From NCBI RefSeq assembly GCF_002854065.1, contig NZ_CP024147.1: 64,000 bases of DNA; one strand, 5' to 3'. The notes under the pieces were generated by a model, which ran no database searches, was not told the origin of the DNA, and was given only the letters and a program-made list of their open reading frames with translations. The stretch is from Escherichia coli (lineage in GTDB: Bacteria > Pseudomonadota > Gammaproteobacteria > Enterobacterales > Enterobacteriaceae). Made by a program: the position numbers and the translations under genes. Below are positions 14,907 to 64,000 of this stretch, one piece after another. The stretch's first letter is position 1. Each line of letters starts with the position of its first letter.

Positions 14907-14925
14907 GAGAATGATTATCAAATTC
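14907..14925. promoter_or_regulatory. Candidate Fur box upstream of mntH
   Basis: GAGAATGATTATCAAATTC, about 14/19 match to the Fur consensus GATAATGATAATCATTATC by eye. Confidence 0.45.
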
Positions 14926-15192
14926 ATTTAAATGGGTTGTGGTGATTTCTCTGATAGACCAGGATTATGACTACGAAAAGATTGATGACTTGAATGTTAT
15001 GGTTATGTTTAATGTTAGCACATTTACATAACTTTCAGCTTCCATACACAACATAGCAGAAATGTATGACAGCTCACTATTTTTGAAGCTTGTCACAGGA
15101 CGTCATTATAGTGTGTGTCAGATCTCGTTTTCCTTAACCATGTTACATAGAATGTGCACGGAAATTTAACCTGCCTCATATTTGGAGCAAAT

Positions 15193-16444: not shown

Positions 16445-18634
16445 TTAATCAGCTAATGGCTGCGGGCGACCAATCAAATACCCTTGCAGATATTGCACCC
16501 CGAGCTTATGCAATAGCGCCTGCTGCTGTTGCGTCTCAACAAACTCCGCAACCACACTCAATGACTTCGCTTTCGCCAGATCGGTAATTGATCTCACAAT
16601 CATCGCATCCAGCGTATTCGTGACGATATCTTTCACAAAGACGCCATCAATTTTGATGATATCAGCCTGCAAACGCTTTAACCGTTCGTAGTTGGCATAT
16701 CCGGTGCCAAAGTCATCAATCGCAATCCGGAAACCAAACTTATGCAGCTGCTCGATGTTGTACATGCTGCTTTCTGCGTTCGAAAACGCCTGCTCCTCGG
16801 TGATCTCAAGAATGACCGCCTGCGGGGAGATGTGATAACGCTTAAATAGACGAATAATCCGCCCGGCAATATTCTTTTGCAGCAGCGTGAGCGGCATTAA
16901 ATTAACTGAAAAGCGCGGGCCTTTTTTGTCGCAAGGGTGTGTTGCCAGCCACTTCAACAAGGATTCCAGCACTTGCAAATCAAAACGCGCGCTAAGGTTA
17001 AACTGAGCAATAAGGGGCAGAAACTTATCCGGGGTCATAATGCCGCCGTCATATTTCAGTCGCGCGAGGATCTCATCATAACCTTCACCCTCTTTGTTGC
17101 GAATTGGCTGGGCGTAGAGCAGCAAATCCCCCTGATCTAACGCCGTGCGAATGGTATTCAGCAATAGCACTTGTTTAGTGGTCTGCCCGGAAACCATCTC
17201 CTCTCGGCTATCCAGCGCCAGCACATGATGATGTGCGCAGGATTGCTCCGCCAGCCAGCTTAACTGCCCCAACAAGGGTTGCAGGGTTTCCTGATTTCCA
17301 TCAAAACGCCCCCAGGCAGCACCATAGCCCATATCCAGCCCGGTATTGTTCCAGTGAATTTGCCGACTATTCAGGATGTTAACCATATGCTGGAGTCGCC
17401 CTTCCGTTTCCGGCCCGCTCAGCACTAACAGCAGTTCACTACCCGGCAATTGATATAACTTTTCGTTTTCCTGCATCAACGGCAGCAGCGTACGGTAGAT
17501 TGAGCGGATACAGTGAACGCGCATCATTAAGCCGTAATGACGACTCATAAACTCAAGATTATCAATGCGCAGGCAGCAAAAACTCTTGCCCGCCTCTTGC
17601 TCCGGCGCTTGTTCCAACGCACGAAAATTGGGTAGGAGCGTTAACGGATCGGTCAGCGCCTGCAAATGCCAGCGGCGATTAAGCCATTCACTGCGATGAT
17701 AAATGCGCACCATATAGAGCAGGCAAACGCTAAAGGAAATCAGCACCGCGAGAATAAATGCCAGCGAATATTCGGTTTCCACCCCTTGCAAAAAGTTCTG
17801 GTTGTAATTCAGCAGGCAAAGCGTTGAAACAGCCCAAGTGAGATTTAAAAACGGATAGCGAAGCTTACCGACCCCGAGGGTAAAGATGATGAAGAAAACG
17901 GGTACCAGGTAACCGGCAATAAAGTCGTTTTCATAAGGTGTGCACAACAGAAGTAGCAGCACGCTTAACGCTGCCAGCCAGCTTAAGGTAAATGCGCGTT
18001 TCTCTTTGCCCAACGACGGAGCGATATCCCTGCGCCACAATATCTGCGCAAAGTGGGGACTTACAATCATGCGAGTGAGATAGTAGAAAAGCATGTTGTA
18101 AATCAGAACAGCGGTGAAAAGGCTTAGCAAATCAACGACCGTGAAAATGGCATCCGCATCGCCGAAAAAGGTGGATATCTTTAGCGGGAAATCAAAGAAG
18201 CTCCCCACAAGATACATGCTGCATTTGATGCCGATCGGCGTCACCAAACCAAGCCAGAACAGACGTTGCCAGACATATCGGCTGGTCAATCCATAACGCC
18301 AACGCGTCCCCAGCTGCCAGCGTAATATTGCGCAGGCACACAACACGACAAACGTCTGGCTGCCGAGCATGACCGCAGTCTGTAAAAAAGAGAGATGAAA
18401 GTTCCACAGATTGGTGCAAAACATCCCGCATAAAACGGGAACGACACCGCGCCAGCCAAAGATAAACAAGATTGACAGCATTACGCACAGTGGCATCCAC
18501 GCCAGAAAGATATAACTGGAATGGATAATGGCAAGTGGCGAAATAAAACGGGATAGCTGAATAAGTACCACGGTGAGCGTAAACGCTAGTGTGAATATCT
18601 TGATATTTTTTATCAGGTTATGCTCCACAAACAT
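16445..18634 (-). CDS. pdeA: c-di-GMP phosphodiesterase PdeA (YfeA); membrane MASE-like N-terminus plus degenerate GGDEF and EAL domains
   Basis: 729 aa from ATG 18634 (MFVEHNLIKNIKIF); EAL motifs near C-terminus. Confidence 0.85.
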   Translation of the reverse strand: MFVEHNLIKNIKIFTLAFTLTVVLIQLSRFISPLAIIHSSYIFLAWMPLCVMLSILFIFGWRGVVPVLCGMFCTNLWNFHLSFLQTAVMLGSQTFVVLCACAILRWQLGTRWRYGLTSRYVWQRLFWLGLVTPIGIKCSMYLVGSFFDFPLKISTFFGDADAIFTVVDLLSLFTAVLIYNMLFYYLTRMIVSPHFAQILWRRDIAPSLGKEKRAFTLSWLAALSVLLLLLCTPYENDFIAGYLVPVFFIIFTLGVGKLRYPFLNLTWAVSTLCLLNYNQNFLQGVETEYSLAFILAVLISFSVCLLYMVRIYHRSEWLNRRWHLQALTDPLTLLPNFRALEQAPEQEAGKSFCCLRIDNLEFMSRHYGLMMRVHCIRSIYRTLLPLMQENEKLYQLPGSELLLVLSGPETEGRLQHMVNILNSRQIHWNNTGLDMGYGAAWGRFDGNQETLQPLLGQLSWLAEQSCAHHHVLALDSREEMVSGQTTKQVLLLNTIRTALDQGDLLLYAQPIRNKEGEGYDEILARLKYDGGIMTPDKFLPLIAQFNLSARFDLQVLESLLKWLATHPCDKKGPRFSVNLMPLTLLQKNIAGRIIRLFKRYHISPQAVILEITEEQAFSNAESSMYNIEQLHKFGFRIAIDDFGTGYANYERLKRLQADIIKIDGVFVKDIVTNTLDAMIVRSITDLAKAKSLSVVAEFVETQQQQALLHKLGVQYLQGYLIGRPQPLAD

Positions 18635-18841
18635 GAGTACACTACTCTCACTGATCGGGGTTTTCAGGCACACAAATAATAAGTTTATTCGCATCGCGAA
18701 GCAAACAGGGGCCAGCCTGTTGCCGATTTTTCATCCAATGATGCTTTCACCAGGCGGCGCTAACCCGGACGTAGACTGTATTACAAAAGCGGCAAAAAGC
18801 AGAGACAAAAAACCCCCGCTTTGCAGCGAGGGTTGGAAATT

Positions 18842-18917
<76 letters not shown>

Positions 18918-18956
18918 ACGATGCGTTTACGTACCAAATTTGCTGGGTGCAAAATT

Positions 18957-19032
<76 letters not shown>

Positions 19033-19267
19033 GTCACGTAAAGCTTGTCGAGTTGACGGGCGGCATCATATGAATTCCGCCCGAATGTGTCAACGGCAAA
19101 TTGCAGCGTGTAGTTTCAATCGCTGAAAAATCAGGCAAATGAACAATTTTGGAAAACCGCTCGCATTCAGTAGTTATTCATGTCACGGTTTCCTGTAAAG
19201 TGGTGTTATAAAATGAACTACTAATAGACCCACATACATTCAGGGAATTGTTATGTTCAAGGAGAGG

Positions 19268-19612
19268 ATGACGCCAGATGAACTTGCCAGACTGACCGGC
19301 TATAGCCGCCAGACCATTAATAAATGGGTACGCAAGGAAGGCTGGACGACGTCACCAAAACCAGGCGTCCAGGGTGGCAAAGCCCGACTGGTTCACGTCA
19401 ATGAACAGGTTCGTGAATATATTCGTAATGCTGAACGTCCAGAAGGTCAGGGAGAAGCGCCTGCCCTTTCTGGTGATGCGCCGCTTGAAGTATTGCTGGT
19501 GACACTGGTGAAAGAGATGACGCCAGTTGAACAAAAACAGTTTACATCCTTGCTTCTGCGGGAAGGGATTATCGGATTGTTACAACGCTTAGGGATTCGC
19601 GATAGCAAATAA
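19268..19612 (+). CDS. yfeC: YfeC, small HTH DNA-binding protein
   Basis: 114 aa from ATG 19268 (MTPDELARLTGYSRQTINKWVRKEGW); paralogous to adjacent yfeD. Confidence 0.85.
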   Translation: MTPDELARLTGYSRQTINKWVRKEGWTTSPKPGVQGGKARLVHVNEQVREYIRNAERPEGQGEAPALSGDAPLEVLLVTLVKEMTPVEQKQFTSLLLREGIIGLLQRLGIRDSK

Positions 19613-19613
19613 T

Positions 19614-20006
19614 ATGAAAAGATTACGCAATAAAATGACCACCGAAGAACTGGCTGAATGCCTCGGTGTGGCTAAACAAACTGTTAACCGTTGGATCAGA
19701 GAAAAAGGCTGGAAAACGGAAAAATTTCCCGGCGTGAAAGGCGGTCGTGCCAGACTTATTCTGGTCGATACGCAAGTTTGCGAGTTTATTCAGAACACGC
19801 CAGCCTTCCATAACACACCGATGCTTCTGGAAGCCGAAGAACCCCTTGCCGAATACGCACCGGGGATTCGCACTCCTGCTTATCGGCAAATCATAAGCGC
19901 AATAGACAACATGACTCACAGTGAGCAGGAAAAAGTTGCGCAATTTTTGTCACGCGAAGGAATTCGTAATTTCCTTGCTCGTCTCGACATAGATGAATCA
20001 GCTTGA
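19614..20006 (+). CDS. yfeD: YfeD, small HTH DNA-binding protein
   Basis: 130 aa (ELAECLGVAKQTVNRWIREKGW), tandem paralog of yfeC. Confidence 0.85.
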   Translation: MKRLRNKMTTEELAECLGVAKQTVNRWIREKGWKTEKFPGVKGGRARLILVDTQVCEFIQNTPAFHNTPMLLEAEEPLAEYAPGIRTPAYRQIISAIDNMTHSEQEKVAQFLSREGIRNFLARLDIDESA

Positions 20007-21754
20007 CATCCTCCACGCCCTGAATGACGAGGATCCCTGCTACGTTCAGGCTGTCGCCTGAATCATTTCGGTGGGTTCCTGCTTCAACGAGTGGCCTGAC
20101 TGCACCATCTCTCCACAGGCAAGAACGGCGTGCCCCGCCGCTAAAATGTTACGAGCGCCGTTTACATCGGCGTTCGCTGTATATCCACATACCTGGCATC
20201 TGAATTTACTTTGTGACAGGCGATTTTCTTTCGCTGTATGACCACAGCACGCGCAACGCTGGCTTGTGTACGCTGGCGGAACAGCAAGCACCTGACCGCC
20301 TCGCCAGAGCTGCTTGTACTCAAGCTGGCGGCGCATTTCATACCAGCCCTGATCCAGTATCGAACGGTTTAAACCTGATTTTGCCCGGACATTGCGCCCC
20401 GGCTGGCTGACCGTACCCGCTGCTGACTTTGACATGTTGCTGACCTTCAAATCCTCAATGACTATCATTGCGTGGTTTTTGCTGACGGTCGTTGTGACTT
20501 TGTGAAGGTAGTCTCTGCGGATATTTGCGGTACAGGAATGCAGTCGCTGTATTTTGCGTTTCTGCTTCTGCCAGTTATTGCTGAATTTGACCTTGCGGCT
20601 TAACTGTCGCTGAAGTCTCGCCAGCTTCTTCTGGTTTTTCTGAAAACTGTTTACAGGCTCAAAGACTGTGCCATCTGACAGCGTGGCGAGTTTAGCCACG
20701 CCAGCATCCAGTCCGACCATTGATGCTGAAGGGTGAACCGGAGTTGATACTTCACTTTCTGTCTGAATACTGATGTACCACTTACCGCAGGACTGGCTGA
20801 CAGTGACATTTTTCACAACACCCGTGACCTGACGGCTGTTCCGGTAGCGCATCCAGCCAAGTTTCGGCAGAAAAATACGGCTGTTTTCCTGATCGAGCTT
20901 AACGCCCTGCGGGTAGCGGAATGCATCATTCTGTCCCCGCTTTTTGAATCGGGGAAAAGCAGCCCGCTTCCGGAAGAAGTTTTTGTAAGCCCGCTCAAGG
21001 TCTTTCAGTGACTGTTGCAATGGCTGTGAGGGCGAATCTTTAAGCCATTGCGTTTCAGTGGCATTTTTCCACTCAACCAGCCAGGAAGCCATTTTCCCGT
21101 AAGGGATGTATTTATTACCGGCCTCATGATTCTCATTCTGACGTGCCAGAGCACGATTGAAAACGAAACGACATGCGCCTGCGAAGCGCCTCATTTCACG
21201 CTCCTGTTGACCAGCGGGTCTTAACTGGAATTTAAATGCCTGTAGTCGTTTCACAGGCCAAATGATACTTTGGTCTATGAATAAAGAAACCGATATCCGA
21301 CGGGGAAGGCATTGTGTTTTCCTGATGCATGTTCATCTGGTCTTTGTCACCAGATACCGACGTCAGATTTTTGACTATGACGCGACAGAAAAACTACGCA
21401 CTTACTTTTCAAATGTATGTGCTGATTTTGAAGCTGAACTGGTTGAAATGGATGGCGAACCAGATCACGTCCATTTGTTAATTAACTATCCTCCCAAACT
21501 GGCGATATCCAGTCTGGTAAACAGCCTCAAAGGCGTATCGGGTAGGTTACTGCGACGAGATCGACCAGATATTGCAGTCAGGTATTACTACAAAGGCGTT
21601 TTGTGGAGTCCTGGCTATTTTGCCAGTAGCTGCGGAGGTGCGCCAATATCCGTCATCCGCCAATACATTGAACAACAGCAAACACCTGGTCAGGTGGAAA
21701 ACCGCGCCTTATATCCCCGCCCTGAAGGACGGGGTTTTACGGCGCACCGGATAA
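20007..21754 (-). mobile_element. IS200/IS605-family insertion sequence (IS605-type divergent tnpA/tnpB; possibly IS609-like); boundaries approximate
   Basis: Divergent Y1/HUH tnpA and tnpB fill the yfeD-gltX gap; an 18-nt related motif (CGCCCTGAA-T/G-GACG-A/G-GG) occurs in the same orientation at both ends, as expected for IS200/IS605 subterminal hairpins; gltX terminator lies immediately outside. Confidence 0.7.
20046..21254 (-). CDS. tnpB: TnpB (OrfB) RuvC-like RNA-guided endonuclease family protein
   Basis: 402 aa, GTG start; RuvC-I GLDAGV, Ruv[11 protein letters not shown], zinc finger CACCGH...CQVCG, Ruv[14 protein letters not shown] all present. Confidence 0.85.
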
Positions 21755-54437: not shown

Positions 54438-55799
54438 TCAGAAGAACAGTGACGGATCGCCCGCCCGTTTGATCAAGCGACCGTTTGCCATAATGCCCAT
54501 GCTTTCCAGCCAGCGTTCAAACTCCGGTGACGGGCGCAGGTTGAGTAACTGACGCACAGTGGCAGTGTCGTGGAAGGCGGTGGTCTGGTAGTTGAGCATG
54601 ATGTCATCGCCCAACGGCATCCCCATGATGTAATTGCAGCCTGCGGTGGCGAGCAGGATCATCAGGTTTTCGTTGAGGTTCTGGTCAGCGTCAGCGTGGT
54701 TGGTGTAACAGCAGTCACAGCCCATAGAGATGCCGCTCAGCTTGCCCATAAAGTGATCTTCTAAGCCCGCACGGATAATCTGGCGGTCGTTGTAGAGATA
54801 CTCCGGCCCAATAAAGCCGACCACGGTGTTGACGATAAACGGATCGTAATGACGCGCCAGCCCATAGTTACGTGCTTCCATCGTCACCTGGTCTGCGCCG
54901 AAGTTAGCGCCAGCGGATAGCGCTGAACCTTGTCCGGTTTCGAAGTAGAGGCAGTTTTCCCCGGCGATACGGTTGAACTCTGCACCCACTGCGCGCGCTT
55001 CGTCGAGCATCGCCAGTTCCACGCCAAACTCTTTCAGCCCTTTTTCACTGCCACAGATACTCTGGAAAATCAGCCCGCCTGGTGCGCCACGACGAATCGC
55101 TTCGATCTGGGTGGTGACGTGCGCCAGTACGCAGCCCTGAGTTGGGATGTTGAATTTGTCGATCACGCCATAGATGGTGTCCAGCACGCGGCTTAAGTTT
55201 TCCACGTCGTCAGTCACCGGGTTAACGCCGATCACCGCATCGCCCACCCCGAAGGAAAGCCCTTCGTAGATTTGCGCGGCGATACTTTGCACGTCGTCAC
55301 GGGTGTCATTTGGCTGCAAACGGGCGCTGAAGGTGCCCGGAATACCGATGGTGGTATTGGCCTTTTTGATTACCGGCATTTTCTTCGCGCCGTAGATCAG
55401 GTCCGCGTTGGAGCAAATCTTCGCTATCGCCGCGACCACTTCCGAGGTCAGCCCTTTGCGGGTAAAGGTAATGTCGTCCACGCTGGTTTCATCGCTCAGC
55501 ACATACTCACGCAGTTCGCTGATGCTCCAGTTTTTAATCTGGTTGTAGGCCGTTTCGTTAACATCGTCCTGAATCAGCCGCGTCACGCAGTCATCTTCAT
55601 AGGCAATCACCGGATTATTGCGGATGTCCGCTACGGTCATTTCCGACAACACCTGCTTTGCCGCCACGCGCTCCTGTGAACTTGCCGCTGCAACGCCTGC
55701 CAGCACATCCCCCGAACGCAGTTCGTTGGCTTTAGCCAGCACCTCTTTTACATCCTTAAACTGATATACATTGCCGAACAATGTGGTCTTTAGTTTCAT
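54438..55799 (-). CDS. eutB: Ethanolamine ammonia-lyase large subunit EutB
   Basis: 453 aa, MKLKTTLFGNVYQFKDVKEVLAKANELRSGD. Confidence 0.95.
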   Translation of the reverse strand: MKLKTTLFGNVYQFKDVKEVLAKANELRSGDVLAGVAAASSQERVAAKQVLSEMTVADIRNNPVIAYEDDCVTRLIQDDVNETAYNQIKNWSISELREYVLSDETSVDDITFTRKGLTSEVVAAIAKICSNADLIYGAKKMPVIKKANTTIGIPGTFSARLQPNDTRDDVQSIAAQIYEGLSFGVGDAVIGVNPVTDDVENLSRVLDTIYGVIDKFNIPTQGCVLAHVTTQIEAIRRGAPGGLIFQSICGSEKGLKEFGVELAMLDEARAVGAEFNRIAGENCLYFETGQGSALSAGANFGADQVTMEARNYGLARHYDPFIVNTVVGFIGPEYLYNDRQIIRAGLEDHFMGKLSGISMGCDCCYTNHADADQNLNENLMILLATAGCNYIMGMPLGDDIMLNYQTTAFHDTATVRQLLNLRPSPEFERWLESMGIMANGRLIKRAGDPSLFF

Positions 55800-55986
55800 A
55801 AGTCGTTCCCTCAGGAAGAAGTGATGAGTAACATTTCTTCCAGCATTCGAACAATTCTATTTCATCGTTAGCCCTTGTCCTGTAAGGTAATTGTCTTAAC
55901 ACGCCCGTTATTCATCATGCCGAACGCAACCGAACGCGCCGGATACATGATCGGGTTTATCCAGTCGTTATGTCGAGGTATCCGGT

Positions 55987-57192
55987 TTGAGCAAGACACC
56001 ACTCACAGCAAAGGCCATCGCAGCCGCGCAGCCAAAAGACAAGCCCTATAAACTCACCGATTCACTGACGCCAGGACTGTTTTTGCTGGTGCATCCCAAC
56101 GGCAGCAAATACTGGCGATTCAGGTATTGGTTGAATAAACGAGAGTTTTTGCAGGCCATTGGTGTTTACCCGCTAATCACACTCAAAGAAGCACGCAGAC
56201 GCGCCACAGAGAGCCGATCTCTGATTGCTAATGGAATTAATCCAGTGGAAGAAGCACGCAAGGAAAAAGCCATTGATGCGCTCAACATGGCGGCAGGTTT
56301 TAAGACGGTAGCGGAGGACTGGCTGGCTACCAGGGTCAGCGGGTGGTCAGAGTCCTACACGAAACAGGTTAGATCGGCACTGGAAAAAGATGTTTACCCC
56401 GTGCTGGGGAAGCGGTCAATTGTCGATATAACGGCCCGTGACGTGCTGGAATTGCTTCAGAAGAAAGAGCGTACCGCACCGGAACAAGCCAGGAAGCTAC
56501 GCCAGCGTATCGGGGAGATCTTCAAATTTGCCGTTATCACCGAACTGGTGGCAAGAAATCCGGTTGCAGATCTGAACACAGCACTAAAAGCCCGCCGTCC
56601 GGGCCACAACGCATGGCTGCAAATTAACGAAATTCAGGCGTTCTATGAAGCACTTGAGAGAGCCGGGAGCGTCCAGATTCAGACGGCAATACGTTTGCTC
56701 ATATTGAGCGCTCTAAGGACGGTGGAACTGCGTAAAATGCGCTGGGAATGGGTTAACCTGGAAGACGCGATCATCACCCTACCCGCTGAAGTCATGAAGG
56801 CCCGTCGCCCGCATGTGGTCCCGCTATCACGGCAGGCGGTAGAGCTATTGCAGGACCAGTTTACTCGCACCGGATACAGCGCTTTCGTCTTCCCTGGTCG
56901 ATTCATGGATAAGCCCTTGTCTGCCAGCGCGATACTGAAAGCCCTGGAGCGTATCGGATACAAGTCGATAGCCACAGCACACGGCTGGCGTACAACGTTC
57001 AGCACGACGCTTAACGAGTCCGGCAGGTACTCACCAGACTGGATTGAAATCCAATTGGCCCACGTCCCGAAGGGTGTACGCGGTGTATATAACCAGGCGG
57101 CCTATCTCAAACAGCGCCGTCAAATGCTTCAGGACTACGCCGACGCCATTGATTCAATACTGGCTGGTGAAGGTAATCCGCTGGAACCGTGA
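55987..57192 (+). CDS. intZ: P4-type tyrosine integrase (IntZ-like, CPZ-55-type prophage)
   Basis: 401 aa, apparent TTG start; catalytic R (LRTVELRKMRWEWV), HxxR (HGWRTTFST) and Tyr (GVYNQAAY) regions. Confidence 0.85.
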   Translation: MSKTPLTAKAIAAAQPKDKPYKLTDSLTPGLFLLVHPNGSKYWRFRYWLNKREFLQAIGVYPLITLKEARRRATESRSLIANGINPVEEARKEKAIDALNMAAGFKTVAEDWLATRVSGWSESYTKQVRSALEKDVYPVLGKRSIVDITARDVLELLQKKERTAPEQARKLRQRIGEIFKFAVITELVARNPVADLNTALKARRPGHNAWLQINEIQAFYEALERAGSVQIQTAIRLLILSALRTVELRKMRWEWVNLEDAIITLPAEVMKARRPHVVPLSRQAVELLQDQFTRTGYSAFVFPGRFMDKPLSASAILKALERIGYKSIATAHGWRTTFSTTLNESGRYSPDWIEIQLAHVPKGVRGVYNQAAYLKQRRQMLQDYADAIDSILAGEGNPLEP

Positions 57193-57418: not shown

Positions 57419-58186
57419 ATGCGTAATAGTTTAGCAGTTCGCTTTAGCTTGCAGCAAGGCGAAGAATTATCACAGGAATATCAATTCATCAAATACGAAG
57501 AAGCGCCGGAACAGGTGCAAATAGCTTTTGATGATCAGCACTACGGCAACACTATCCGCTACGACGGTAAAAAATGGTTTCTCAATCCGGTAACAAATGC
57601 CATTCACGTATGTCAAATCATTACGCCAGTAAATAACAGCGCGGATAACGATTCGGCTATTGACGCTGAACTGGTGACAGAACCACTACCGCCACCGCCG
57701 CCAGTACAAGAAAGCGATGTAAAACCCGACGCCATCGATCTGACAGCAGAAGCCAGAGAGCGCAAACAACCGAAGCCGGAACAACCGCAAGCCAAGGATA
57801 ACAAACAGTGGCACGGTAACACGGCGTATCTGAATACGTTTGCTTGTCATCTTCATGAAGTGCTACCACAGGCCATCTATAGCACATGGTGCGACAAACA
57901 AACGGCGGCACACTTCCACCTGCTTTACGCGCTTTGCTACCTGGCAAGCTACGAAAACAAAGATGAAGGTATCGAGCTTGGCGAGGTGTTATATGGTGCT
58001 GAAAAGATCACAAAGGGCGGCGTAGTACCTGGTTTCCATATGGCCCGATCAACGTTCGATATCAAGATTAACGAGCTTGAACAGTGGGGATTAATCAAGG
58101 TAACACGAGGTAAGAAACGTAAGGACGGGCAAGGCAACTTGCCGAACAGTATCAAACTGAACTTTAAGCCGTACAGTTTAAAATAA
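57419..58186 (+). CDS. Prophage hypothetical protein with Pro-rich linker and possible C-terminal winged-helix DNA-binding domain
   Basis: 255 aa; AGGAGG SD 8 nt upstream; N-terminal domain, LPPPPPVQ...PKPEQPQ linker, C-terminal STFDIKINELEQWGLIKVTRGKKRK. Confidence 0.6.
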   Translation: MRNSLAVRFSLQQGEELSQEYQFIKYEEAPEQVQIAFDDQHYGNTIRYDGKKWFLNPVTNAIHVCQIITPVNNSADNDSAIDAELVTEPLPPPPPVQESDVKPDAIDLTAEARERKQPKPEQPQAKDNKQWHGNTAYLNTFACHLHEVLPQAIYSTWCDKQTAAHFHLLYALCYLASYENKDEGIELGEVLYGAEKITKGGVVPGFHMARSTFDIKINELEQWGLIKVTRGKKRKDGQGNLPNSIKLNFKPYSLK

Positions 58187-58194
58187 TCACACTA

Positions 58195-58220
58195 GGCGGG
58201 CAATGTTCCCGCCTTTTCTT
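58195..58220 (+). terminator. Terminator after the 255-aa gene
   Basis: GGCGGG-CAATGTT-CCCGCC followed by TTTTCTTT. Confidence 0.7.
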
Positions 58221-58243
58221 TGCCTCAATCCTATAAAATTCAC

Positions 58244-58282
58244 ATCCCGAAAATCGGTATCTGGGTATCCCGAAAATCGGTA
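58244..58282. repeat. Two tandem 16-bp direct repeats, each internally palindromic
   Basis: ATCCCGAAAATCGGTA at 58244-58259 and 58267-58282 (core CCGA-AAA-TCGG), 23-bp spacing. Confidence 0.7.
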
Positions 58283-58289
58283 AGTAATA

Positions 58290-59400
58290 ATAAGTATTAT
58301 CCTTAAAGGTAAAAACCATATAAGTAAGATCTATCTCTTCAAGAATGTATATATTCACTACGTTCATATATACATGAGAAGTTTCCCTTTCATGCAGTCA
58401 AAACTACATTCATCAGCATCGCTTTCTGCGCTCTCCTTCCCAGCAAGCTGGAAAGGCCCATTCACTCACGCACAACCTGCAAACCAGACCAACATACCAT
58501 CATGGCGATTCGTTCATGGGTAGCGCGGGTATATCTCAAAGGGTGATTTCTTCTTGGTGGACCTTCGGAAGACTTCGAGCAATCGCCAGCTCAAAAGACG
58601 GTCTGGCAGTGATGGTTATCATCGACAGCATTGAGCGCTACCGCGCCAACTTACAGCAGCAGGATAACTACCGAAGGAAAACCCACGCCGAAAGGGATTG
58701 ACTCACTGCAAAGCCAATGGGTTTTATCAGCGTATACAGACCAGACAGGAAACAGCAGCAAAGCAGCGTATAGCCAGGTGCAGACAGTACCATCACACAA
58801 CGCACAGCAGGCTGAGGTGAACACTCAAACAGGTTTATCCCCGCAGCCGACCAACGCAAACCATCCTGACCGTGCCAAATTCGAACGGAATGGTGCCTGT
58901 AACGCGATGAACACATATAACCGCTTACTTGCTTACCTGAAAACTTCACGTCGCCACAGAGCGATTTAGACGCATTATAATTGATGCGATTTCATTAAAT
59001 TTTCACCAGACACCGGAACAACGCCGATTAATCCAGGAATGGATTCATCGACATGCGCCGCTTTCCCCGCAGAACAGTCTCGCCTGAATAGTCTCACCAA
59101 CCAGATTTCAGATTGTCCAATCAGGCACGTCTCATTAAACGACAGAATGCGGCCTACAACGCCATCGCTGCCGATCTCGTTTGAGCAAGGTGCTGAGACT
59201 GAATGACGGACGCCCACTCCTCAGAGCTGAGGAATCGCCACACAGAACGCTGAGATCTGATATTACCGCCGCACCATTCCACGCCAGACGAATCAATCTA
59301 ATCACACCTGAGCAAATGCATTGCCAAAAATTAAGGCCGTCAGAATGCGTTATATTGCGTTTAAACGGCATCTAATTTTAATTAGTTTTGATGTGGTGAT
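58290..59400. other. ORF-poor prophage segment with only short overlapping ORFs; possible gene remnants or noncoding RNA
   Basis: No ORF over 112 aa on either strand across about 1.1 kb; the largest is S/T/Q-rich and of low complexity; contains an AT-rich 10-bp inverted repeat ATGTATATAT/ATATATACAT (58345-58375). Confidence 0.4.
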
Positions 59401-59668
59401 TGCAGGCAAAAAAAATCCCGCCGGAGAGAGCGGGGAAGTGAAATCAATCGTTGTAGTTATAGATCACATTTTGAGTAAGGGTTACCAGCCCTTGAGTAAT
59501 ATTATCCCTGTATTACGTGAGATGCGCAATTATTTTTTGCTAATTAAAAGTTTTGTAAACATTACAGAATATCCCCTTTCCCTATATGGTAAAAGATGTG
59601 AAACAGGGACATGAGGAATATAATATTAAGTATCAACAGTAATGTTGGTCTTTAATTTCATTCAGGGC

Positions 59669-59710
59669 GCGGTGAGGGTTTTCCCATATTTTTCCTCACC
59701 GCTACTTTTT
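59669..59710 (+). promoter_or_regulatory. Hairpin plus T-run directly upstream of the alpA-like gene ribosome-binding site
   Basis: GCGGTGAGG-16 nt loop-CCTCACCGC followed by TACTTTTT and then GAGGTGAGAACATG. Confidence 0.45.
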
Positions 59711-59721
59711 GAGGTGAGAAC

Positions 59722-59913
59722 ATGAATGATAGCGAATTAATGACGGTGAGCGAGGTAGCCGCTTTATTCGGCGTTACCCGACGCACTATATTCCGCTGGC
59801 TGAACAAGATTAAAGGTTGGCCCGTTCCGGTTACTCCGGTCGGTGCACGAATTAAGTTTATCCGATCTGAGATTTTGGAATTCTATAAAAACAAAGGCGC
59901 TCGCCACCAATGA
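59722..59913 (+). CDS. AlpA/Xis-family small HTH DNA-binding protein (prophage regulator or excisionase-like)
   Basis: 63 aa, LMTVSEVAALFGVTRRTIFRWL HTH; SD GAGGTGAG. Confidence 0.7.
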   Translation: MNDSELMTVSEVAALFGVTRRTIFRWLNKIKGWPVPVTPVGARIKFIRSEILEFYKNKGARHQ

Positions 59914-59989: not shown

Positions 59990-60316
59990 ATGAAAATCAA
60001 AGCAAACACAATTAAAGAAATAACATCAATCAAAGTAAAAGGAGCAGATGCCATGCATTCATTAGACAGTTATTTTCAGCGCACGACAGCCCCTAAATCA
60101 GCCGCCCAGGAACGCCGTGAGGAATTCCAGGAAAAAGTGATGCGTTCTGCTGATTATATTGCGGACAAGTTCGTGGAAACGGTTCGGCCACTTGTTGATG
60201 AAGTAGCTGATAAACTTCAGTCTGAAATGCCGGAAGACATGGAAGGCACTGCAAAGGCGCGACTCCTTTTTGAATTAAGTCGTCGTTTCGGCGTGTCAAT
60301 AAGCACTTTTAAATAA
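59990..60316 (+). CDS. Hypothetical prophage protein
   Basis: 108-aa ORF, AAGGA SD, co-directional tight spacing with neighbours. Confidence 0.5.
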   Translation: MKIKANTIKEITSIKVKGADAMHSLDSYFQRTTAPKSAAQERREEFQEKVMRSADYIADKFVETVRPLVDEVADKLQSEMPEDMEGTAKARLLFELSRRFGVSISTFK

Positions 60317-60333: not shown

Positions 60334-60876
60334 ATGGACGCATTTGATGTACTGACAAACAAAGGCGATGAACTGGTAGCACAGCGTGATAAAACCGCCA
60401 ACGAAGGGGAACGCGCACTGTTAAATAAGCAGATTAAAGCGATCCGTATGGCCCAGTTTAAATTAATCAGCAATGAAGTTATCGAAATAATTAAACCGCA
60501 GATCCCACAAATCGTTGCTGACGCTATTAAAGCCGCCGGACTGGAGAAACGCATTGCCGGGCTGAAAACGAACGCAGAGAAAATGGAGATGCACAAACAG
60601 AGCGGTGCTCCGACTCCGGATGAGTACTTCTCACCGGATGCTGAGTTTATGGCGCAGGTTGAGGAACGTCTGGGTAGCTGTCTCACCGAGGAACAGCGTC
60701 GCTATTTTGATGGAGTGGATAGTTCGGCAGGTATTGACCTGAACTCGTGTTTCGGTCGTGAAATTGAGCATTTTGATGCCGCCCCGTCTATGCCGGAGCC
60801 AGAACCAGAAATGGCCGCCGATCCTGAAGCTGAGCAACGGAAACGCGTATTCAATGCGATAGGGATTCGGTACTGA
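60334..60876 (+). CDS. Hypothetical prophage protein (acidic C-terminus)
   Basis: 180-aa ORF with strong GGAGG SD 8 nt upstream. Confidence 0.6.
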   Translation: MDAFDVLTNKGDELVAQRDKTANEGERALLNKQIKAIRMAQFKLISNEVIEIIKPQIPQIVADAIKAAGLEKRIAGLKTNAEKMEMHKQSGAPTPDEYFSPDAEFMAQVEERLGSCLTEEQRRYFDGVDSSAGIDLNSCFGREIEHFDAAPSMPEPEPEMAADPEAEQRKRVFNAIGIRY

Positions 60877-60927: not shown

Positions 60928-61302
60928 ATGAACAAATCGGACAAGACAAACAGGATAAGCAGTCTCGAAACAATGTTCGGGAACTATATTAGCACAAGTC
61001 CGGAGAAAATCATCATGTTGGCACTACGCATCATGCAGGGCATCGCTAAGACCCTCGCAGAACATGTCTTAGACCTGAAACATTCGCCACTGAGCAAACA
61101 GGCCATGAAGCGCCAAACGCTTCGTCTGTGGGCTGAATATTCGCTTGGAACTATCAATAAAATCATCGACATGAAATCGGGGCCGAGCAACCAGAGCGCG
61201 GAGGAAATGGAGTTCATCAGGCGTTTAATTCTCATTCGCAGAGATATTCATAGCCAGTTACACAGCGTGGGAATCGATATTAATGATGGGACGGGCGATT
61301 AA
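60928..61302 (+). CDS. Hypothetical prophage protein
   Basis: 124-aa ORF; weak SD, start uncertain. Confidence 0.45.
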   Translation: MNKSDKTNRISSLETMFGNYISTSPEKIIMLALRIMQGIAKTLAEHVLDLKHSPLSKQAMKRQTLRLWAEYSLGTINKIIDMKSGPSNQSAEEMEFIRRLILIRRDIHSQLHSVGIDINDGTGD

Positions 61303-61340: not shown

Positions 61341-61571
61341 ATGAAGCAAGATATTGCAGACAGGCTGGAGATACTCGAAGGCCAGCGGGCAGAAGCGAAA
61401 CAACTACGTAAGCAGGCCAGAAGAGCGCACAGGAACTACGAAGCAGAATCACTGACCGCTTTCATCAACTTCACAAACCGTTGCATCCAGGAGTGTTACA
61501 GGGAGGATGCAGAAAACTGGCTGGATTCATTGCCAGAACAGACTCTGCATGAACTGAACGGCGACCAGTAA
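61341..61571 (+). CDS. Hypothetical prophage protein
   Basis: 76-aa ORF with GAGGAG SD. Confidence 0.5.
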   Translation: MKQDIADRLEILEGQRAEAKQLRKQARRAHRNYEAESLTAFINFTNRCIQECYREDAENWLDSLPEQTLHELNGDQ

Positions 61572-61859
61572 ATAAATCCAGTACGTTTCCCGCAGTGCGC
61601 ATAACGTACATTATGTGAAAAACGATATGGATGTATATCAGTATTGATTTCATTGAGAAAACTGGGTTTTCAGTGGCACAGACAAAGAAGCATAGCTGAT
61701 ACAGCTTTATAAGCCATTGATTCTATTAAGTGATGTTTTTTGTGATTGGTTGAAGCAAACCAAAACACGATGCCACTGAAGCGTTAATAAACTGTTTCAA
61801 TGTGAAATTATTAGAGTAAAGAACAATTTGGAGGGTCCGCAAACGCGGATAACAATATC

Positions 61860-64000
61860 ATGAGTGGAAATCTCGGGACCATATACTACGAGGTCGATGC
61901 CCGCACTGGGAAACTTCTTATCGCGCAACAGCAGGCGGAAGAGGCGTTCGATCGCATTGAACGAGGAGCGCGGAAGGCTGATAGCGGCGTCAAAAAGTTA
62001 AATACGCAGATGACTAAAACATCAGCCGCAGTCAAAACCAACCTTTCCCCGGCAATCCGTAACGCATCATACCAGATCGCAGACCTTGCCACTCAATTGC
62101 AGATGGGCGGTAATGCGCTTCAGGCGTTCGCTGTGCAGGGTGCGCAGTTATTAGCTGGCTTTGGCACGATGGGCGCGGTAGCTGGCGCGGTGCTGGCTAT
62201 CGCTGGCGCTATGGGTGGAAGCCTGGCACAAGGCGCTGATAGTGCAGCCGGATCGGTTGAGTATCTGGACAAGGCGATCACCAAACTGAACGAGGTCATA
62301 GCTGTAAATGAACAGGGCGTGACGGTGATGAGTGATAGTTACGCCAGACTTTCTAAGGTTAACGCTGAAGTAGCGAAACAGATGCGGAACATGGCTGAAA
62401 TTCAGGCAATTGCAGCACTGCGTGACCTGAAAGAACAGGCAAGCCAGGCACAGGGGGAAATGTCGTCATTCTGGCGCAGCTTGCAGGGTGGTAAAGCTGA
62501 CGCAGCAGCAGCAGCACAGGCACTTGATGATCTTGGAATCACAACCAACGACTACAAAGAGGCGATAGCCATACTGAACGCCAATCAGCCGGATACACAG
62601 GCGCAAATGGCAACGCTAGCCAAATCCGTGATGTATGTTGGAGAGCAATATGATCTGACCAACCAGCAAGCATACGAATTTATACGCGCACTAAATAAGG
62701 CCGCGACAACGAAAACGCCGGAAGCCATGCAGGAGCTATCTGGCTTCATGCAGGTTTTGCTTCAGGATACCGAAAACGGTAACGAGGCATTCCGTGAACT
62801 GGCTATCAAATTCGTCGATGCACAAACCAAAGGCGCAATGTTGGAGGACCAACTAAACCGACTGAAAGGCGCTATTAGTGACGCAGCCACAGAAGCCAGA
62901 AACGCAAACTTTACCACTATGCTCAACACCGTCGCCGCACGCCTGGCAACCATTGAGCAAGGTTGGGAGGCAGGCGTTAGGATGCAGATGAAAGCCCAGG
63001 GCTACACTGAAGAGCAGATCGATGAATATGTGAACATGGAAACGGCGTACCGTGATGCAAAAGCCGCTTTGGACGAGAAGAACAAGGCCGACCGTGAAGC
63101 TATTGCGCTATCCAAACGCCAGGCCGCAGAAGCAGCCCGCAAGGCAAAACAGGAAGAAGCTGAAGCACAACGCAAGGCCAAACAGTTAGCCGCGCAGAAG
63201 GAGCAGGCAGGACGCTTTACGCAGCAAGTAATGACGGAATACCTGACGACCGTAGATCCGGCAACAGGCAAGGCGTTTAACCCTGCCGCACAAGTAGAAA
63301 TGCAGGAGCAGCAGAAGAAAGCGGCGCTGGATAAATACAGACAGTTGGGCGTCCTGGATGAACAGCAGTACCAGAACACGCTAACCGCCATCCAGAAAAC
63401 CGCGTCAATGCGCCGCCAGCAAATCATCAAAGACGAGGCCGACACGTTATTCAACAATCAGCAACAGTTGATCGGCACATTTGGCGATTTCTTCGGTGAA
63501 CTGTCTGGAGTCATAGCAGACGGTGCAGGTGAGCAAAACGCGGCATATCAAGCGCTATTTGCTGTGCAGAAGGGTTTTGTATTGGCATCAGCAGCTTTAA
63601 GCCTTCAGAAAGCGCTTGCTGAGGCAAACGCCTTGCCTTTCCCGGCTAATCTTCCGGCCTATGCGCAAGCTATGTCAGCAGGTACGCAGATCATTTCAGC
63701 TATTCGTGGAATAGCTTTCGGTGGCGGACGCTACAACGGCGGCGCGGTTGGTGCTGGCAACCTGTACCGCGTGGGTGAACACGGTAAGCCTGAGATATTC
63801 AAGGCGAACAATGGCAGCCAGTACATGATCCCAGGTGATAACGGTCGCGTGATAAGTAATCGTGACATTGGCGGCGGTGGCGGCGTAACAATCAACAGCC
63901 CGATCACCATTAACACTACGAATGGCTTCAGTGATGAAGACTCAAGGCGTCTTGAGGAAGCGATGAAGCGCGTAGCTATGGGCGTTTGCAGGCAGGAGTC
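61860..64000 (+). CDS. Phage tail tape measure protein, 5' part; ORF runs off window end
   Basis: Open frame from ATG 61860 to the window end (over 700 codons; absent from the ORF track because no stop); hydrophobic Gly/Ala-rich segment, long A/Q/K-rich coiled coils, GNLYRVGEHGKPEIF motif resembling lambda gpH. Confidence 0.65.
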   Translation, partial: MSGNLGTIYYEVDARTGKLLIAQQQAEEAFDRIERGARKADSGVKKLNTQMTKTSAAVKTNLSPAIRNASYQIADLATQLQMGGNALQAFAVQGAQLLAGFGTMGAVAGAVLAIAGAMGGSLAQGADSAAGSVEYLDKAITKLNEVIAVNEQGVTVMSDSYARLSKVNAEVAKQMRNMAEIQAIAALRDLKEQASQAQGEMSSFWRSLQGGKADAAAAAQALDDLGITTNDYKEAIAILNANQPDTQAQMATLAKSVMYVGEQYDLTNQQAYEFIRALNKAATTKTPEAMQELSGFMQVLLQDTENGNEAFRELAIKFVDAQTKGAMLEDQLNRLKGAISDAATEARNANFTTMLNTVAARLATIEQGWEAGVRMQMKAQGYTEEQIDEYVNMETAYRDAKAALDEKNKADREAIALSKRQAAEAARKAKQEEAEAQRKAKQLAAQKEQAGRFTQQVMTEYLTTVDPATGKAFNPAAQVEMQEQQKKAALDKYRQLGVLDEQQYQNTLTAIQKTASMRRQQIIKDEADTLFNNQQQLIGTFGDFFGELSGVIADGAGEQNAAYQALFAVQKGFVLASAALSLQKALAEANALPFPANLPAYAQAMSAGTQIISAIRGIAFGGGRYNGGAVGAGNLYRVGEHGKPEIFKANNGSQYMIPGDNGRVISNRDIGGGGGVTINSPITINTTNGFSDEDSRRLEEAMKRVAMGVCRQE

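What the first reader, a model, noticed from the sequence alone, without database searches (positions are those of the whole stretch)
61572..64000. Tail tape measure gene right after regulatory genes, preceded by a 290-bp gap
The open frame from 61860 has the typical tape-measure build: a Gly/Ala-rich hydrophobic segment, long coiled coils and a GNLYRVGEHGKPEIF motif like that of lambda gpH. No major tail or head genes precede it. The two upstream small ORFs (124 and 76 aa) might be tail-assembly chaperones of the G/GT type, but I saw no obvious slippery sequence, and the start has only a weak ribosome-binding site.
Basis: partly seen in the sequence, partly recalled or inferred. Interest (0 to 1): 0.4.

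Follow-up and report, generated by a model that had tools for sequence, protein, structure and literature searches.

The report
Tape-measure gene on a satellite-like island
The open frame is a real, intact phage tail tape-measure gene, but it sits alone at the end of a 10-kb mobile island (the E. coli "CPZ-55" family) that looks like a phage-parasitising satellite rather than a prophage, which suggests these islands supply their own tail ruler when they hijack a helper phage.

Summary
Window 61860-64000 encodes the first 713 of 726 residues of a true tape measure protein (PHROG 1538, E=9e-103; PDB 9occ_M), after a 288-bp non-coding leader, with no head or tail genes nearby. The upstream ORFs are not tail-assembly chaperones, and no tail operon follows: in a 97%-identical genome the next genes are yffQ/R/S-like, then eutA.

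The gene ends a ~10-kb CPZ-55-type island, integrated by IntZ at an 8-bp core (TCAGGAAG) between eutB and eutA. Relatives keep one backbone: an AlpA/Xis-like HTH, small conserved proteins, often an HNH, usually a small terminase and a YffP-like protein, then a 726-732 aa TMP. At least four TMP alleles exist. They evolve under strong purifying selection (dN/dS 0.05-0.13 at dS ~0.4).

Relatives also occur as free 9-11 kb circles, and one contig carries the attP junction of an excised IntZ-type island. The K-12 CPZ-55 element and one 9-kb plasmid lack the TMP.

Best reading (~0.55): a PICI-like satellite family whose TMP replaces the helper's during tail assembly, as in Vibrio PLEs. The window copy lacks the terminase and may be partly decayed. 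No helper phage was identified and no packaging is shown.

The parts
55811..55818 (.). attL core TCAGGAAG, the left boundary of the island, 12 nt upstream of the eutB start codon (eutB is 54438-55799 on the - strand)
   Evidence: The same 8-mer lies at the right junction, overlapping the eutA stop, in L002 29845-29852. In contig L109 it joins the island's right end directly to its left end, an attP junction. It matches the K-12 annotation of where CPZ-55 starts.
55987..57192 (+). intZ, a tyrosine integrase (401 aa)
   Evidence: 93% identical to K-12 IntZ. RefSeq annotates it as intZ in the 100%-identical genome.
57419..58186 (+). 255-aa protein, a distant YffL relative; possibly a replication-initiator-type winged-helix protein (inferred)
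   Evidence: 28% identical to K-12 YffL over 134 aa. YffL is 25% identical to the HTH_36 protein of L086, which hits PHROG replication-initiation families at 1e-9. The 255-aa protein itself has no direct profile hit. A terminator-like hairpin follows at 58194-58214.
58187..59721 (.). 1.5 kb without a convincing gene. It holds two patches conserved at the DNA level in otherwise divergent relatives (about 58797-59034 and 59239-59475) and the last 32 codons of a decayed 150-aa gene (59283-59378).
   Evidence: blastn to L006, L090 and L093 gives 78-88% identity; tblastn of a150/d150 finds the remnant. No Rfam family reaches threshold; GcvB scores 19.9 bits against a gathering score of 42. Function unknown; an origin or regulatory region is a guess.
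59722..59913 (+). 63-aa HTH_17 protein (MerR-superfamily, AlpA/excisionase type)
   Evidence: Pfam HTH_17 34.2 bits against a cut-off of 27; PHROG 66 'excisionase and transcriptional regulator' 1.5e-8; TIGR01764 'excise' 25.6 bits against 28.8. Present in all relatives.
59990..60316 (+). 108-aa conserved backbone protein, function unknown
   Evidence: 47-49% identical to the 88-aa proteins of L006 and L091. No profile hits.
60334..60876 (+). 180-aa conserved backbone protein, function unknown
   Evidence: 33-41% identical to a231/g231 and f80. No significant profile hits.
61015..61302 (+).
   Evidence: 35-49% identical to K-12 YffM and its counterparts in L006, L086 and L093. AlphaFold2 gives a three-helix bundle, pLDDT 85.7. 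Foldseek against PDB finds only generic bundles, none at E<=0.001.
61341..61571 (+). 76-aa ORF, a variable cassette specific to this island subtype, occupying the place of the small terminase and YffP-like genes of relatives
   Evidence: No homologue in L006, L086, L090, L093 or K-12. Present in L003, L004, L096 and L097. No profile hit.
61572..61859 (+). Conserved non-coding leader of the TMP gene (the '290-bp gap'). It contains GGAGGG at 61830-61835, a hairpin at 61835-61850, then 9 nt to the ATG.
   Evidence: The last ~70 nt are nearly invariant in all ten variants aligned. A further ~200 nt are shared by window, L003, L004, L093, L095, L097 and L098 whatever gene lies upstream. The hairpin appears in both the MFE and the centroid fold; the whole-leader z-score is -2.26. 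No sigma-70-like promoter on the + strand.
61860..64000 (+). Tape measure protein gene, the first 713 of 726 codons (cut by the window end)
   Evidence: Full length comes from L002 24974-27154, which differs from the window at one of 713 codons. dN/dS 0.13 overall and about 0.05 in the middle.
62139..62234 (+). Hydrophobic Gly/Ala-rich segment of the TMP (residues 94-125)
   Evidence: Kyte-Doolittle 19-residue windows >1.4. Aligns with the hydrophobic region of lambda gpH at 36% identity.
63717..64000 (+). C-terminal TMP module, including GNLYRVGEHGKPEIF at 63756-63800. It is exchanged between different island TMP types and is related to the C-terminus of the phage mEp013 TMP.
   Evidence: 98.5% nt identity to the 3' end of the otherwise unrelated 732-aa TMP of the island in NZ_CP024289. 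72-74% aa identity to the mEp013 TMP C-terminus.

Best explanation
What is shown:
- The ORF is an intact, selectively maintained siphovirus-type tape measure gene.
- It is the last core gene of a ~10-kb CPZ-55-family island, integrated by the IntZ recombinase at the core TCAGGAAG between eutB and eutA.
- The island family also exists as free 9-11 kb circles and can excise. It has a PICI-like gene set: a recombinase; a replication-initiator-like or primase-like protein; an AlpA/Xis-type HTH; often an HNH; usually a small terminase; and usually one 726-732 aa TMP.
- It has no capsid, portal, large terminase, tail tube, tail tip or lysis genes.

What is inferred: the family are phage satellites of temperate siphoviruses. 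When a helper is induced or infects, the island excises and replicates. Its DNA is packaged into helper capsids, redirected by the island's own small terminase where it has one. The island TMP takes the helper TMP's place inside the growing tail, docking through N- and C-terminal regions that resemble those of helper-type phage TMPs. The result is a chimeric tail, as shown experimentally for Vibrio cholerae PLEs.

Speculative pay-offs are escaping defences or superinfection exclusion aimed at the helper's TMP, and lowering helper yield.

The window copy belongs to a subtype that has swapped the terminase and YffP-like genes for a 76-aa ORF and carries a decayed stretch, so it may be only partly functional.
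For: TMP identity: PHROG 1538 E=9e-103, PHROG 1107 E=1.7e-57; PDB 9occ_M TMP E=3.5e-11.

Not a prophage. Full islands in L002, L003, L004, L086, L100 and L105 run eutB-intZ-...-TMP-(0 to 4 small genes)-eutA, with no other virion genes apart from one borderline HK97-gp10-like protein in L100.

Selection. dN/dS is 0.13 overall and ~0.05 in the middle at dS 0.36-0.44. All 120 listed protein clusters, bar two shorter ones (689 and 718 aa), are 725-729 aa at 89-98% identity. The gene covers >=80% of its length in 60 of 5426 complete E. coli genomes.

Recurrence of the TMP:
- Four TMP alleles sit at the same position: window type; L086 type, 732 aa with Pfam TMP_3 at 1e-52; L100 type, 729 aa; P0121 type, 729 aa and 49% identical.
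- The alleles show internal mosaicism. The island genes upstream of the TMP are ~99-100% identical between window-type copies, while the TMP middle and C-terminus differ at dS 0.4-1.2.

Satellite-type partners in relatives:
- Sf6-type small terminase above the Pfam cut-off in L086, L100 and L101, and listed among the precomputed Pfam hits in L006, L090, L093, L105, L107 and L109.
- K-12 YffO is 52% identical to the L086 terminase.
- DUF5906/primase-like 529-aa protein in the L090 circle.
- HNH endonuclease.

Mobility:
- L090 and L091 are rotations of one 10,291-bp circle with 3 mismatches; L092 is a 99.2%-identical rotation, so three independent samples carry it.
- L093 and L006 have 127-bp terminal overlaps.
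- A complete 9,003-bp non-mobilizable plasmid, pRHB34-C15_2, is a family member.
- L109 carries the attP junction, right end-TCAGGAAG-left end, of an IntZ island with terminase and a 726-aa TMP.
- The same backbone is found with a tyrosine integrase, with a serine recombinase, or with none.

Link to real phages:
- The L086 TMP is 52% identical over its whole length to the mEp013 TMP (732 vs 735 aa).
- The window TMP shares 44% identity over the N-terminal 75 aa and 72-74% over the C-terminal 80-93 aa with mEp013, with an unrelated middle.
- The only coliphages with any similarity to the island terminase are the mEp immunity-I group (PMC11893012).
- A 727-aa relative is the TMP of a complete lambda-tail-type prophage.

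Precedent. PLEs encode a TMP that is incorporated into PLE virions and is needed for efficient transduction (PMC11838301). EPIP satellites also carry a TMP (10.64898/2025.12.02.691453).

Why it could have been missed. SatelliteFinder treats tail profiles as forbidden components for PICI and cfPICI (PMC10085698).
Against: - No helper is identified, and induction, packaging and transfer are not shown.
- The element is absent from IMG/VR viral contigs. Its non-TMP part has no nucleotide similarity to any of 50,697 phage records.
- The 35 E. coli genomes with an mEp013-like head module do not overlap the ~45 island-bearing genomes I could list. The chance expectation is only ~0.5, so this is uninformative.
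- The window subtype has no recognisable small terminase, HNH or primase, and has a decayed 1.1-kb stretch.
- Two family members, the K-12 CPZ-55 element and pRHB34-C15_2, lack a TMP altogether, so the gene is accessory to the family.
- A circular contig shows an extrachromosomal form, not a packaged one.
Confidence: 0.55

Rival explanations
1. Anti-phage interference. The island TMP is a decoy that enters or blocks the tail assembly of infecting or induced siphoviruses, for example by forming mixed TMP trimers or by titrating tail-tip proteins or chaperones. This lowers phage yield and benefits the host or island whether or not the island itself is transferred.
For: Purifying selection and intactness persist even in the terminase-less window subtype. 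The termini resemble phage TMPs while the middle is unrelated. The variable regions of the islands carry defence-type or toxin cargo, a YafO toxin and an AIPR protein. Tail-assembly interference is a known defence strategy, as with the Tai systems (PMC11364771) and PLE11 Rta (PMC11838301).
Against: No PADLOC model matches any island protein except the generic HTH. A decoy has no need to keep the full 726-732 aa length across four divergent alleles, nor a complete hydrophobic segment and C-terminal module. In most relatives the gene lies directly after a small terminase, which is a transfer function. This reading is also not exclusive of the satellite reading.
Confidence: 0.2
2. The classical view: a cryptic, decaying prophage (CPZ-55) in which the tape measure gene is simply the last surviving piece of a lost tail operon, with no present function.
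For: K-12 annotates the locus as 'cryptic prophage CPZ-55'. The window copy has a decayed region and lacks the terminase. One genome has the gene truncated by IS1. K-12 itself has lost the gene.
Against: dN/dS of 0.05-0.13 at dS ~0.4 is incompatible with neutral decay. Dozens of alleles keep 725-732 aa. None of the ~20 variants examined carries tail-tube, tail-tip, capsid or lysis genes or remnants of them; the only other tail-related gene is one borderline HK97-gp10-like protein in L100. All are 9-12 kb. The family exists as circles and as an excised attP form.
Confidence: 0.1
3. One reading: the start of a normal prophage tail module (chaperones G/GT, then the tape measure, then distal tail genes beyond the window).
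For: The gene is a bona fide TMP, and two small ORFs do precede it.
Against: In the near-identical genome the gene is followed by yffQ/R/S-like genes and eutA, not by tail genes. The upstream ORFs have no chaperone homology and no frameshift site.
Confidence: 0.02
4. A small plasmid or integrative element that uses a TMP-derived membrane and coiled-coil protein for something unrelated to virions, for example DNA entry or exclusion at the inner membrane, or plasmid maintenance.
For: Free circular forms, and one record typed as a non-mobilizable plasmid. The TMP has a membrane-type hydrophobic segment.
Against: Its consistent partners are a small terminase and an HNH endonuclease, which are packaging functions. 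The C-terminal module stays 72-74% identical to a phage TMP's tail-tip-proximal end.
Confidence: 0.05

Closest known systems
[quoted passage not shown]
   Same: A small island without capsid or tail-tube genes that nevertheless encodes its own tape measure protein. In PLEs that protein is incorporated into satellite virions in place of the helper's and is needed for efficient transduction.
   Different: There is no sequence relationship that I tested. The host is different and the presumed helper type is different (temperate siphovirus versus the lytic myovirus ICP1). PLEs also encode a tail-assembly chaperone and often a baseplate hub; none was found here. Here the TMP is about the same length as related phage TMPs (726-732 vs 727-735 aa), not shorter. 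Nothing is experimentally shown for this family.
Gram-negative PICIs such as EcCICFT073 (PMC6092414; definition in PMC10085698)
   Same: About 10 kb. An integrase at the left end with all genes co-oriented; an AlpA-type small HTH; a replication protein; a small terminase in most relatives; accessory or defence cargo next to the integrase; no lysis genes.
   Different: PICIs by definition carry no tail genes, and tail profiles are 'forbidden' in SatelliteFinder. No capsid-morphogenesis gene is recognised here. The window copy lacks the terminase and a primase. The HTH hits HTH_17 rather than the Phage_AlpA model. Some members are integrase-less circles.
Cryptic prophage CPZ-55 of E. coli K-12 (intZ, yffL-yffS)
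   Same: Same integration site and integrase (93% identity). YffM, YffQ and YffS have clear counterparts; YffL has a distant one.
   Different: K-12 has yffO (a small-terminase-like gene) and yffP but no TMP and no remnant of one. The window element has the TMP but not yffO or yffP. The K-12 arrangement is confined to the K-12 laboratory lineage among complete genomes.
Tape measure proteins of temperate siphoviruses of the mEp immunity-I / ES18 / Oslo type (PP180002 mEp013; PMC11893012)
   Same: Same PHROG family, similar length, N- and C-terminal similarity, and a hydrophobic segment.
   Different: In those phages the gene lies inside a complete tail module: major tail, chaperone-like gene, then M, L, K, I, J. 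Here it stands alone. The middle 550 residues of the window protein are not alignable to mEp013 by BLAST.
EPIP satellites of Mycolicibacterium (10.64898/2025.12.02.691453)
   Same: A satellite class noted for carrying a TMP.
   Different: EPIPs also carry capsid, scaffold and head-tail joining genes and a serine integrase. They are from an unrelated host, and I made no sequence comparison.

Membership tests
Phage tail tape measure protein | Significant sequence homology to established TMP families | tested here: met
   PHROG 1538 E=9e-103 and PHROG 1107 E=1.7e-57; PDB 9occ_M 'Tail tape measure protein gp18' E=3.5e-11. Pfam TMP_2 is sub-threshold at 19.5 vs 30.2 bits.
Phage tail tape measure protein | Hydrophobic or transmembrane-like segment and a conserved C-terminal module | tested here: met
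   Residues 94-125 are hydrophobic. The C-terminal 80-93 aa are 72-74% identical to the mEp013 TMP.
Phage tail tape measure protein | Encoded between a G/GT-type chaperone pair with a -1 frameshift and the distal tail genes | tested here: not met
   No chaperone homology, no slippery heptamer in the upstream ORFs, and no tail genes downstream in L002.
Phage tail tape measure protein | Present in virions and sets tail length | not testable with these tools
   Needs particle proteomics and electron microscopy.
PICI (phage-inducible chromosomal island) | Integrase and a specific att site | tested here: met
   IntZ at 55987-57192. The core TCAGGAAG is found at attL, at attR and in an attP junction.
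PICI (phage-inducible chromosomal island) | Regulator of the alpA / merR / stl type | tested here: inconclusive
   The HTH_17 / excisionase-type 63-aa protein passes the Pfam cut-off, but equivalence to AlpA was not established.
PICI (phage-inducible chromosomal island) | Primase-replicase module | tested here: inconclusive
   The window has only a weak YffL-like protein, 28% identical to YffL. Relatives have HTH_36 replication-initiator-like proteins or a DUF5906/primase-like protein.
PICI (phage-inducible chromosomal island) | Small terminase or another packaging-redirection gene | tested here: not met
   None is recognisable in the window. An Sf6-type terminase is present in most relatives and in K-12 YffO.
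PICI (phage-inducible chromosomal island) | No tail, holin or other virion structural genes | tested here: not met
   A full-length TMP is present. SatelliteFinder would treat this as forbidden.
PICI (phage-inducible chromosomal island) | Induction by, and packaging by, a helper phage | not testable with these tools
   Only excised or circular DNA forms were seen. There is no virome evidence.
TMP-encoding satellites of the PLE type | The satellite's own TMP, plus a cognate tail-assembly chaperone | tested here: inconclusive
   The TMP is there. No chaperone is detectable by profile or by fold in the window or in relatives.
CPZ-55 element family | IntZ-mediated insertion between eutB and eutA, with yffM and yffS-type genes | tested here: met

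The most novel reading that the evidence does not exclude
The CPZ-55 family, including the K-12 'cryptic prophage', is an undescribed family of E. coli phage satellites that live either integrated at eutA/eutB or as 9-11 kb circles. They carry a small terminase and, unusually, their own tape measure protein, which replaces the helper's to build chimeric tails. They have been overlooked because satellite finders exclude islands with tail genes and because RefSeq labels the TMP 'hypothetical'.
Probability: 0.45. Interest if true: 0.75.

Novelty: new variant of a known kind. Interest (0 to 1): 0.6.

Why it matters
Satellites were long thought to steal whole tails from their helpers. The only experimentally supported exception in the searched literature is the Vibrio PLE family (2025 preprint); a second preprint describes Mycolicibacterium satellites that carry a TMP but does not show its role.

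A second, unrelated family in E. coli would make tail remodelling by satellites a general theme. It would also put it in a genetically tractable host. This family keeps a 726-732 aa TMP under strong selection, swaps TMP modules by recombination, and exists both integrated and as circles.

It would also reinterpret a textbook K-12 'cryptic prophage' as a degenerate satellite. And it points to a blind spot in current satellite detection, where tail genes are used as exclusion criteria.

Separately, the island splits the eut operon exactly at the eutA stop and eutB ribosome-binding site. Excision could therefore matter for ethanolamine use.

Tried and rejected
Chaperone hypothesis for the upstream ORFs:
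- Pfam, PHROGs, NCBIfam and PADLOC scans gave nothing.
- The slippery-heptamer scan found none inside the ORFs.
- The AlphaFold2 model of the 95-aa protein plus Foldseek against PDB found only generic three-helix bundles.

The 288-bp gap:
- No Rfam family and no + strand sigma-70-like promoter.
- The fold z-score is only -2.26.
- The sequences are too similar for covariation analysis.

Direct evidence of packaging:
- IMG/VR has no close relative.
- Six metagenome contigs added variants but carry no virome label.

Helper identification by co-residence: 35 genomes have an mEp013-like head module and none overlaps the island genomes I could list. The expected overlap is ~0.5, so this is uninformative.

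Other searches:
- A species-representative genome scan with the YffM alignment found only one Citrobacter contig, which ends before any TMP.
- The non-TMP island DNA has no similarity to phages.
- The lambda gpH comparison gave only weak, local similarity.
- att repeats were not found by the repeat finder with an 11-nt seed. The 8-bp core came from the attP contig instead.
- One literature query (intZ + satellite) returned only irrelevant papers. No paper in the library links CPZ-55 or yffO/yffP to satellites.


Full report
**1. The observation.** Window 61860-64000 is one open frame of 713 codons that runs off the window.
- An in-frame stop at 61812 and the lack of any start codon before 61860 fix the start. 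The N-terminus aligns residue for residue with the start of a phage TMP.
- The protein is a genuine tape measure protein: PHROG 1538 E=9e-103 (residues 1-455), PHROG 1107 E=1.7e-57 (residues 412-725), PDB 9occ_M 'Tail tape measure protein gp18' E=3.5e-11, and 3762 relatives in the 50%-representative library.
- Pfam TMP_2 is sub-threshold and NCBIfam has nothing, which is why RefSeq calls it 'hypothetical protein'.
The likeness to lambda gpH is real but slight.
- The gap is 288 bp. No slippery heptamer lies inside either upstream ORF.
- The Shine-Dalgarno-like GGAGGG is 24 nt from the ATG, with a small hairpin in between.

**2. Where it sits.** The window ends in E. coli DNA.
- eutB (54438-55799, - strand) is followed by intZ (55987-57192) and a string of small co-oriented genes.
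- In NZ_CP019256 (97% identical over the region, one amino-acid difference in the TMP) the TMP is 726 aa and ends 40 nt beyond the window. It is followed by yffQ-, yffR- and yffS-like genes and then eutA.
- The whole insert is about 10 kb and has no capsid, portal, large terminase, tail tube, tail tip or lysis gene. It is a relative of the K-12 'cryptic prophage CPZ-55'.
- G+C drops to 43-47% in the regulatory part and returns to 52-53% in the TMP gene.

**3. The upstream ORFs are not chaperones.**
- The '124-aa' ORF is most likely 95 aa (61015-61302). It belongs to the YffM family, which is present in every variant.
- Its AlphaFold2 model is a confident three-helix bundle, and only generic bundles match it.
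- The 76-aa ORF has no homologue outside this subtype. In relatives its place is taken by an Sf6-type small terminase plus a YffP-like protein.
- One metagenome contig (L098) has a 98%-identical copy of the window's 180-aa gene followed by YffM-like, terminase, YffP-like and TMP genes. The window subtype therefore looks like a derived replacement.
- The YffP-like protein, the other chaperone candidate, has no significant structural neighbour.

**4. The family.** I examined about twenty variants: complete E. coli genomes (L001-L004, L086, L100), draft assemblies and metagenomes (L006, L089-L099, L105-L109), K-12 (L087) and a plasmid record (L101).
- They share the order: recombinase or none; a replication-initiator-like (HTH_36) or primase-like (DUF5906) protein; variable cargo (YafO toxin, AIPR); an HTH_17 AlpA/Xis-type protein; often an HNH; three or four small conserved proteins; YffM-like; small terminase; YffP-like; TMP; and a few small genes.
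- Modules are shuffled freely between variants.
- At least four TMP alleles occupy the same slot: the window type, the L086 type (732 aa, Pfam TMP_3 1e-52), the L100 type (729 aa) and the P0121 type (729 aa, 49% identical). Lengths are all 726-732 aa.
- L100 additionally has a borderline HK97-gp10-like protein, a tail-completion type (21.1 bits against a cut-off of 21.4).
- Two members have no TMP: K-12 CPZ-55, which has no remnant and whose arrangement is confined to the K-12 lineage, and the plasmid pRHB34-C15_2. The TMP is therefore frequent but accessory.

**5. The gene is maintained, not decaying.**
- Pairwise Nei-Gojobori estimates give dN/dS 0.13 overall and about 0.05 in the middle 470 codons, at dS 0.36-0.44. 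The C-terminal part gives 0.24 at a saturated dS.
- In the protein database, all 120 listed clusters but two (689 and 718 aa) are 725-729 aa at 89-98% identity.
- Sixty of 5426 complete E. coli genomes carry at least 80% of the gene.
- Between window-type islands, the genes upstream of the TMP are 99-100% identical while the TMP middle and C-terminus differ at dS 0.4-1.2. The last 324 nt are 98.5% identical to the end of the otherwise unrelated L086-type TMP. The TMP is thus a recombination mosaic, as expected for a gene under changing pressure.

**6. The elements are mobile and can be extrachromosomal.**
- Two Logan contigs (ERR13033388, SRR15373010) are rotations of one 10,291-bp circle with 3 mismatches and k-1 terminal overlaps. 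An ENA metagenome scaffold is a 99.2%-identical rotation.
- Two NCBI draft-assembly contigs (GCA_907172595.1 and GCA_958412445.1) have 127-bp terminal overlaps.
- A finished 9,003-bp 'non-mobilizable plasmid' is a family member.
- Contig L109 (SRR23253227) carries intZ, HNH, terminase, a YffP-like gene and a 726-aa TMP but no chromosomal gene. In it the island's right end is joined to its left end through TCAGGAAG. The same 8-mer is at attL in the window (55811-55818) and at attR over the eutA stop. That is the attP junction expected after IntZ-mediated excision.

**7. Links to real phages.**
- The L086-type TMP is 52% identical over its full length to the TMP of the temperate siphovirus mEp013 (732 vs 735 aa).
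- The window TMP shares only the N-terminal 75 residues (44%) and the C-terminal 80-93 residues (72-74%) with mEp013.
- The island terminases and HNH weakly resemble those of the same phage group. No other coliphages match the terminase.
- That group, mEp immunity-I, consists of gut-prevalent temperate siphoviruses (PMC11893012). A 727-aa relative is the TMP of a complete lambda-tail-type prophage.
- This names a plausible helper type but does not prove it. The co-residence test was uninformative.

**8. Mechanism.**
- Shown: TMP identity, island context, selection, modular exchange, circular and excised forms, and packaging-type partners in relatives.
- Inferred: the family are satellites, and the TMP is used in helper tail assembly to give chimeric tails. 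The experimental precedent is the PLEs, where the satellite TMP is in the particles and its deletion cuts transduction by 96-99% (PMC11838301).
- Conserved termini with a free middle fit a protein that must dock at both ends of a helper tail.
- Speculative benefits are escape from TMP-targeted exclusion or defence, and interference with the helper.
- The main rival is a pure interference role. Neutral decay is contradicted by the selection data, and the ordinary-prophage reading is contradicted.

**9. The leader.** The last ~70 nt before the ATG, including the GGAGG-hairpin-ATG arrangement, are nearly invariant in all ten variants aligned. A further ~200 nt travel with the TMP gene whatever gene lies upstream. 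No promoter consensus or known RNA family was found. I read it as a dedicated regulatory and translation-initiation region. The hairpin would bring the Shine-Dalgarno sequence to about 9-10 nt from the start codon. That is an inference, not a test.

**10. Novelty.**
- No paper in the searchable library connects CPZ-55, yffO/yffP or this TMP with satellites.
- PICI definitions exclude tail genes, and SatelliteFinder forbids them (PMC10085698).
- Satellite-encoded TMPs are known only from PLEs and, descriptively, from EPIPs.
- I therefore rate this a new variant of a known kind.
- Interest is moderate to high, tempered by the absence of any functional evidence and by the possibly defective state of the window copy.

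Noticed in passing
L001 28068-28765 (NZ_CP182139, 100% identical to the window up to 63951): In strain CUWW06 an IS1 cuts the TMP gene 49 nt before the window end. Everything from there to maeB, meaning the rest of the island and eutA through eutS, is deleted.
   Followed up: partly
window 55811-55818; L002 29845-29852: The island is inserted exactly between the eutA stop codon and the eutB ribosome-binding region, duplicating TCAGGAAG. It therefore splits the eut operon, and excision would restore it.
   Followed up: partly
L087 (K-12 MG1655 2558691-2565480): K-12 YffO is a small-terminase-like protein: 52% identical to an island terminase that passes the Pfam Sf6_terminase cut-off. YffM and YffP belong to conserved island families. 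K-12 has no TMP and no remnant of one, and this arrangement is confined to K-12 laboratory strains among 5426 genomes.
   Followed up: yes
L090, L091, L092, L093, L006; L101 (CP057168.1): Family members occur as free circles of 9.0-11.1 kb in isolate assemblies, SRA assemblies, a metagenome and one finished plasmid record. Some have no integrase at all.
   Followed up: yes
L002 27426-27465 and 29731-29770: A 40-nt sequence with a terminator-like hairpin occurs both ~270 nt after the TMP stop and at the island's right end. The yffQ/R/S block may therefore be a separately acquired tandem module. L004 and L105 lack it, and there the TMP is the last gene before eutA.
   Followed up: partly
window 58187-59721: A 1.5-kb stretch without a convincing ORF. 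It holds two DNA patches conserved at 78-88% in otherwise very divergent relatives, plus the last 32 codons of a decayed 150-aa gene (59283-59378). A weak GcvB-like Rfam hit on the - strand at 59408-59617 (19.9 bits against a gathering score of 42) is probably chance.
   Followed up: partly
L004 7845-8694; L100 8916-9395; genomes H21-H23: The variable region between intZ and the HTH gene carries different cargo in different strains: a YafO-family toxin with a small partner, an AIPR-family protein, or YffL. This resembles the defence and accessory hotspots of known satellites.
   Followed up: no
L100 13874-14320 (NZ_CP103974): One island variant carries, between the YffP-like gene and its TMP, a 148-aa protein that RefSeq annotates as HK97 gp10 family (a tail-completion type). 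Pfam gives 21.1 bits against a cut-off of 21.4.
   Followed up: partly
L005 (mEp013) 14526-15091 and 17480-21291; L102 5146-9940: In the related real phages the TMP gene is separated from the major-tail and chaperone genes, and from the tail-tip genes, by blocks of small, often reverse-oriented moron-like genes. An isolated-looking TMP gene is therefore not unusual in this phage lineage.
   Followed up: no
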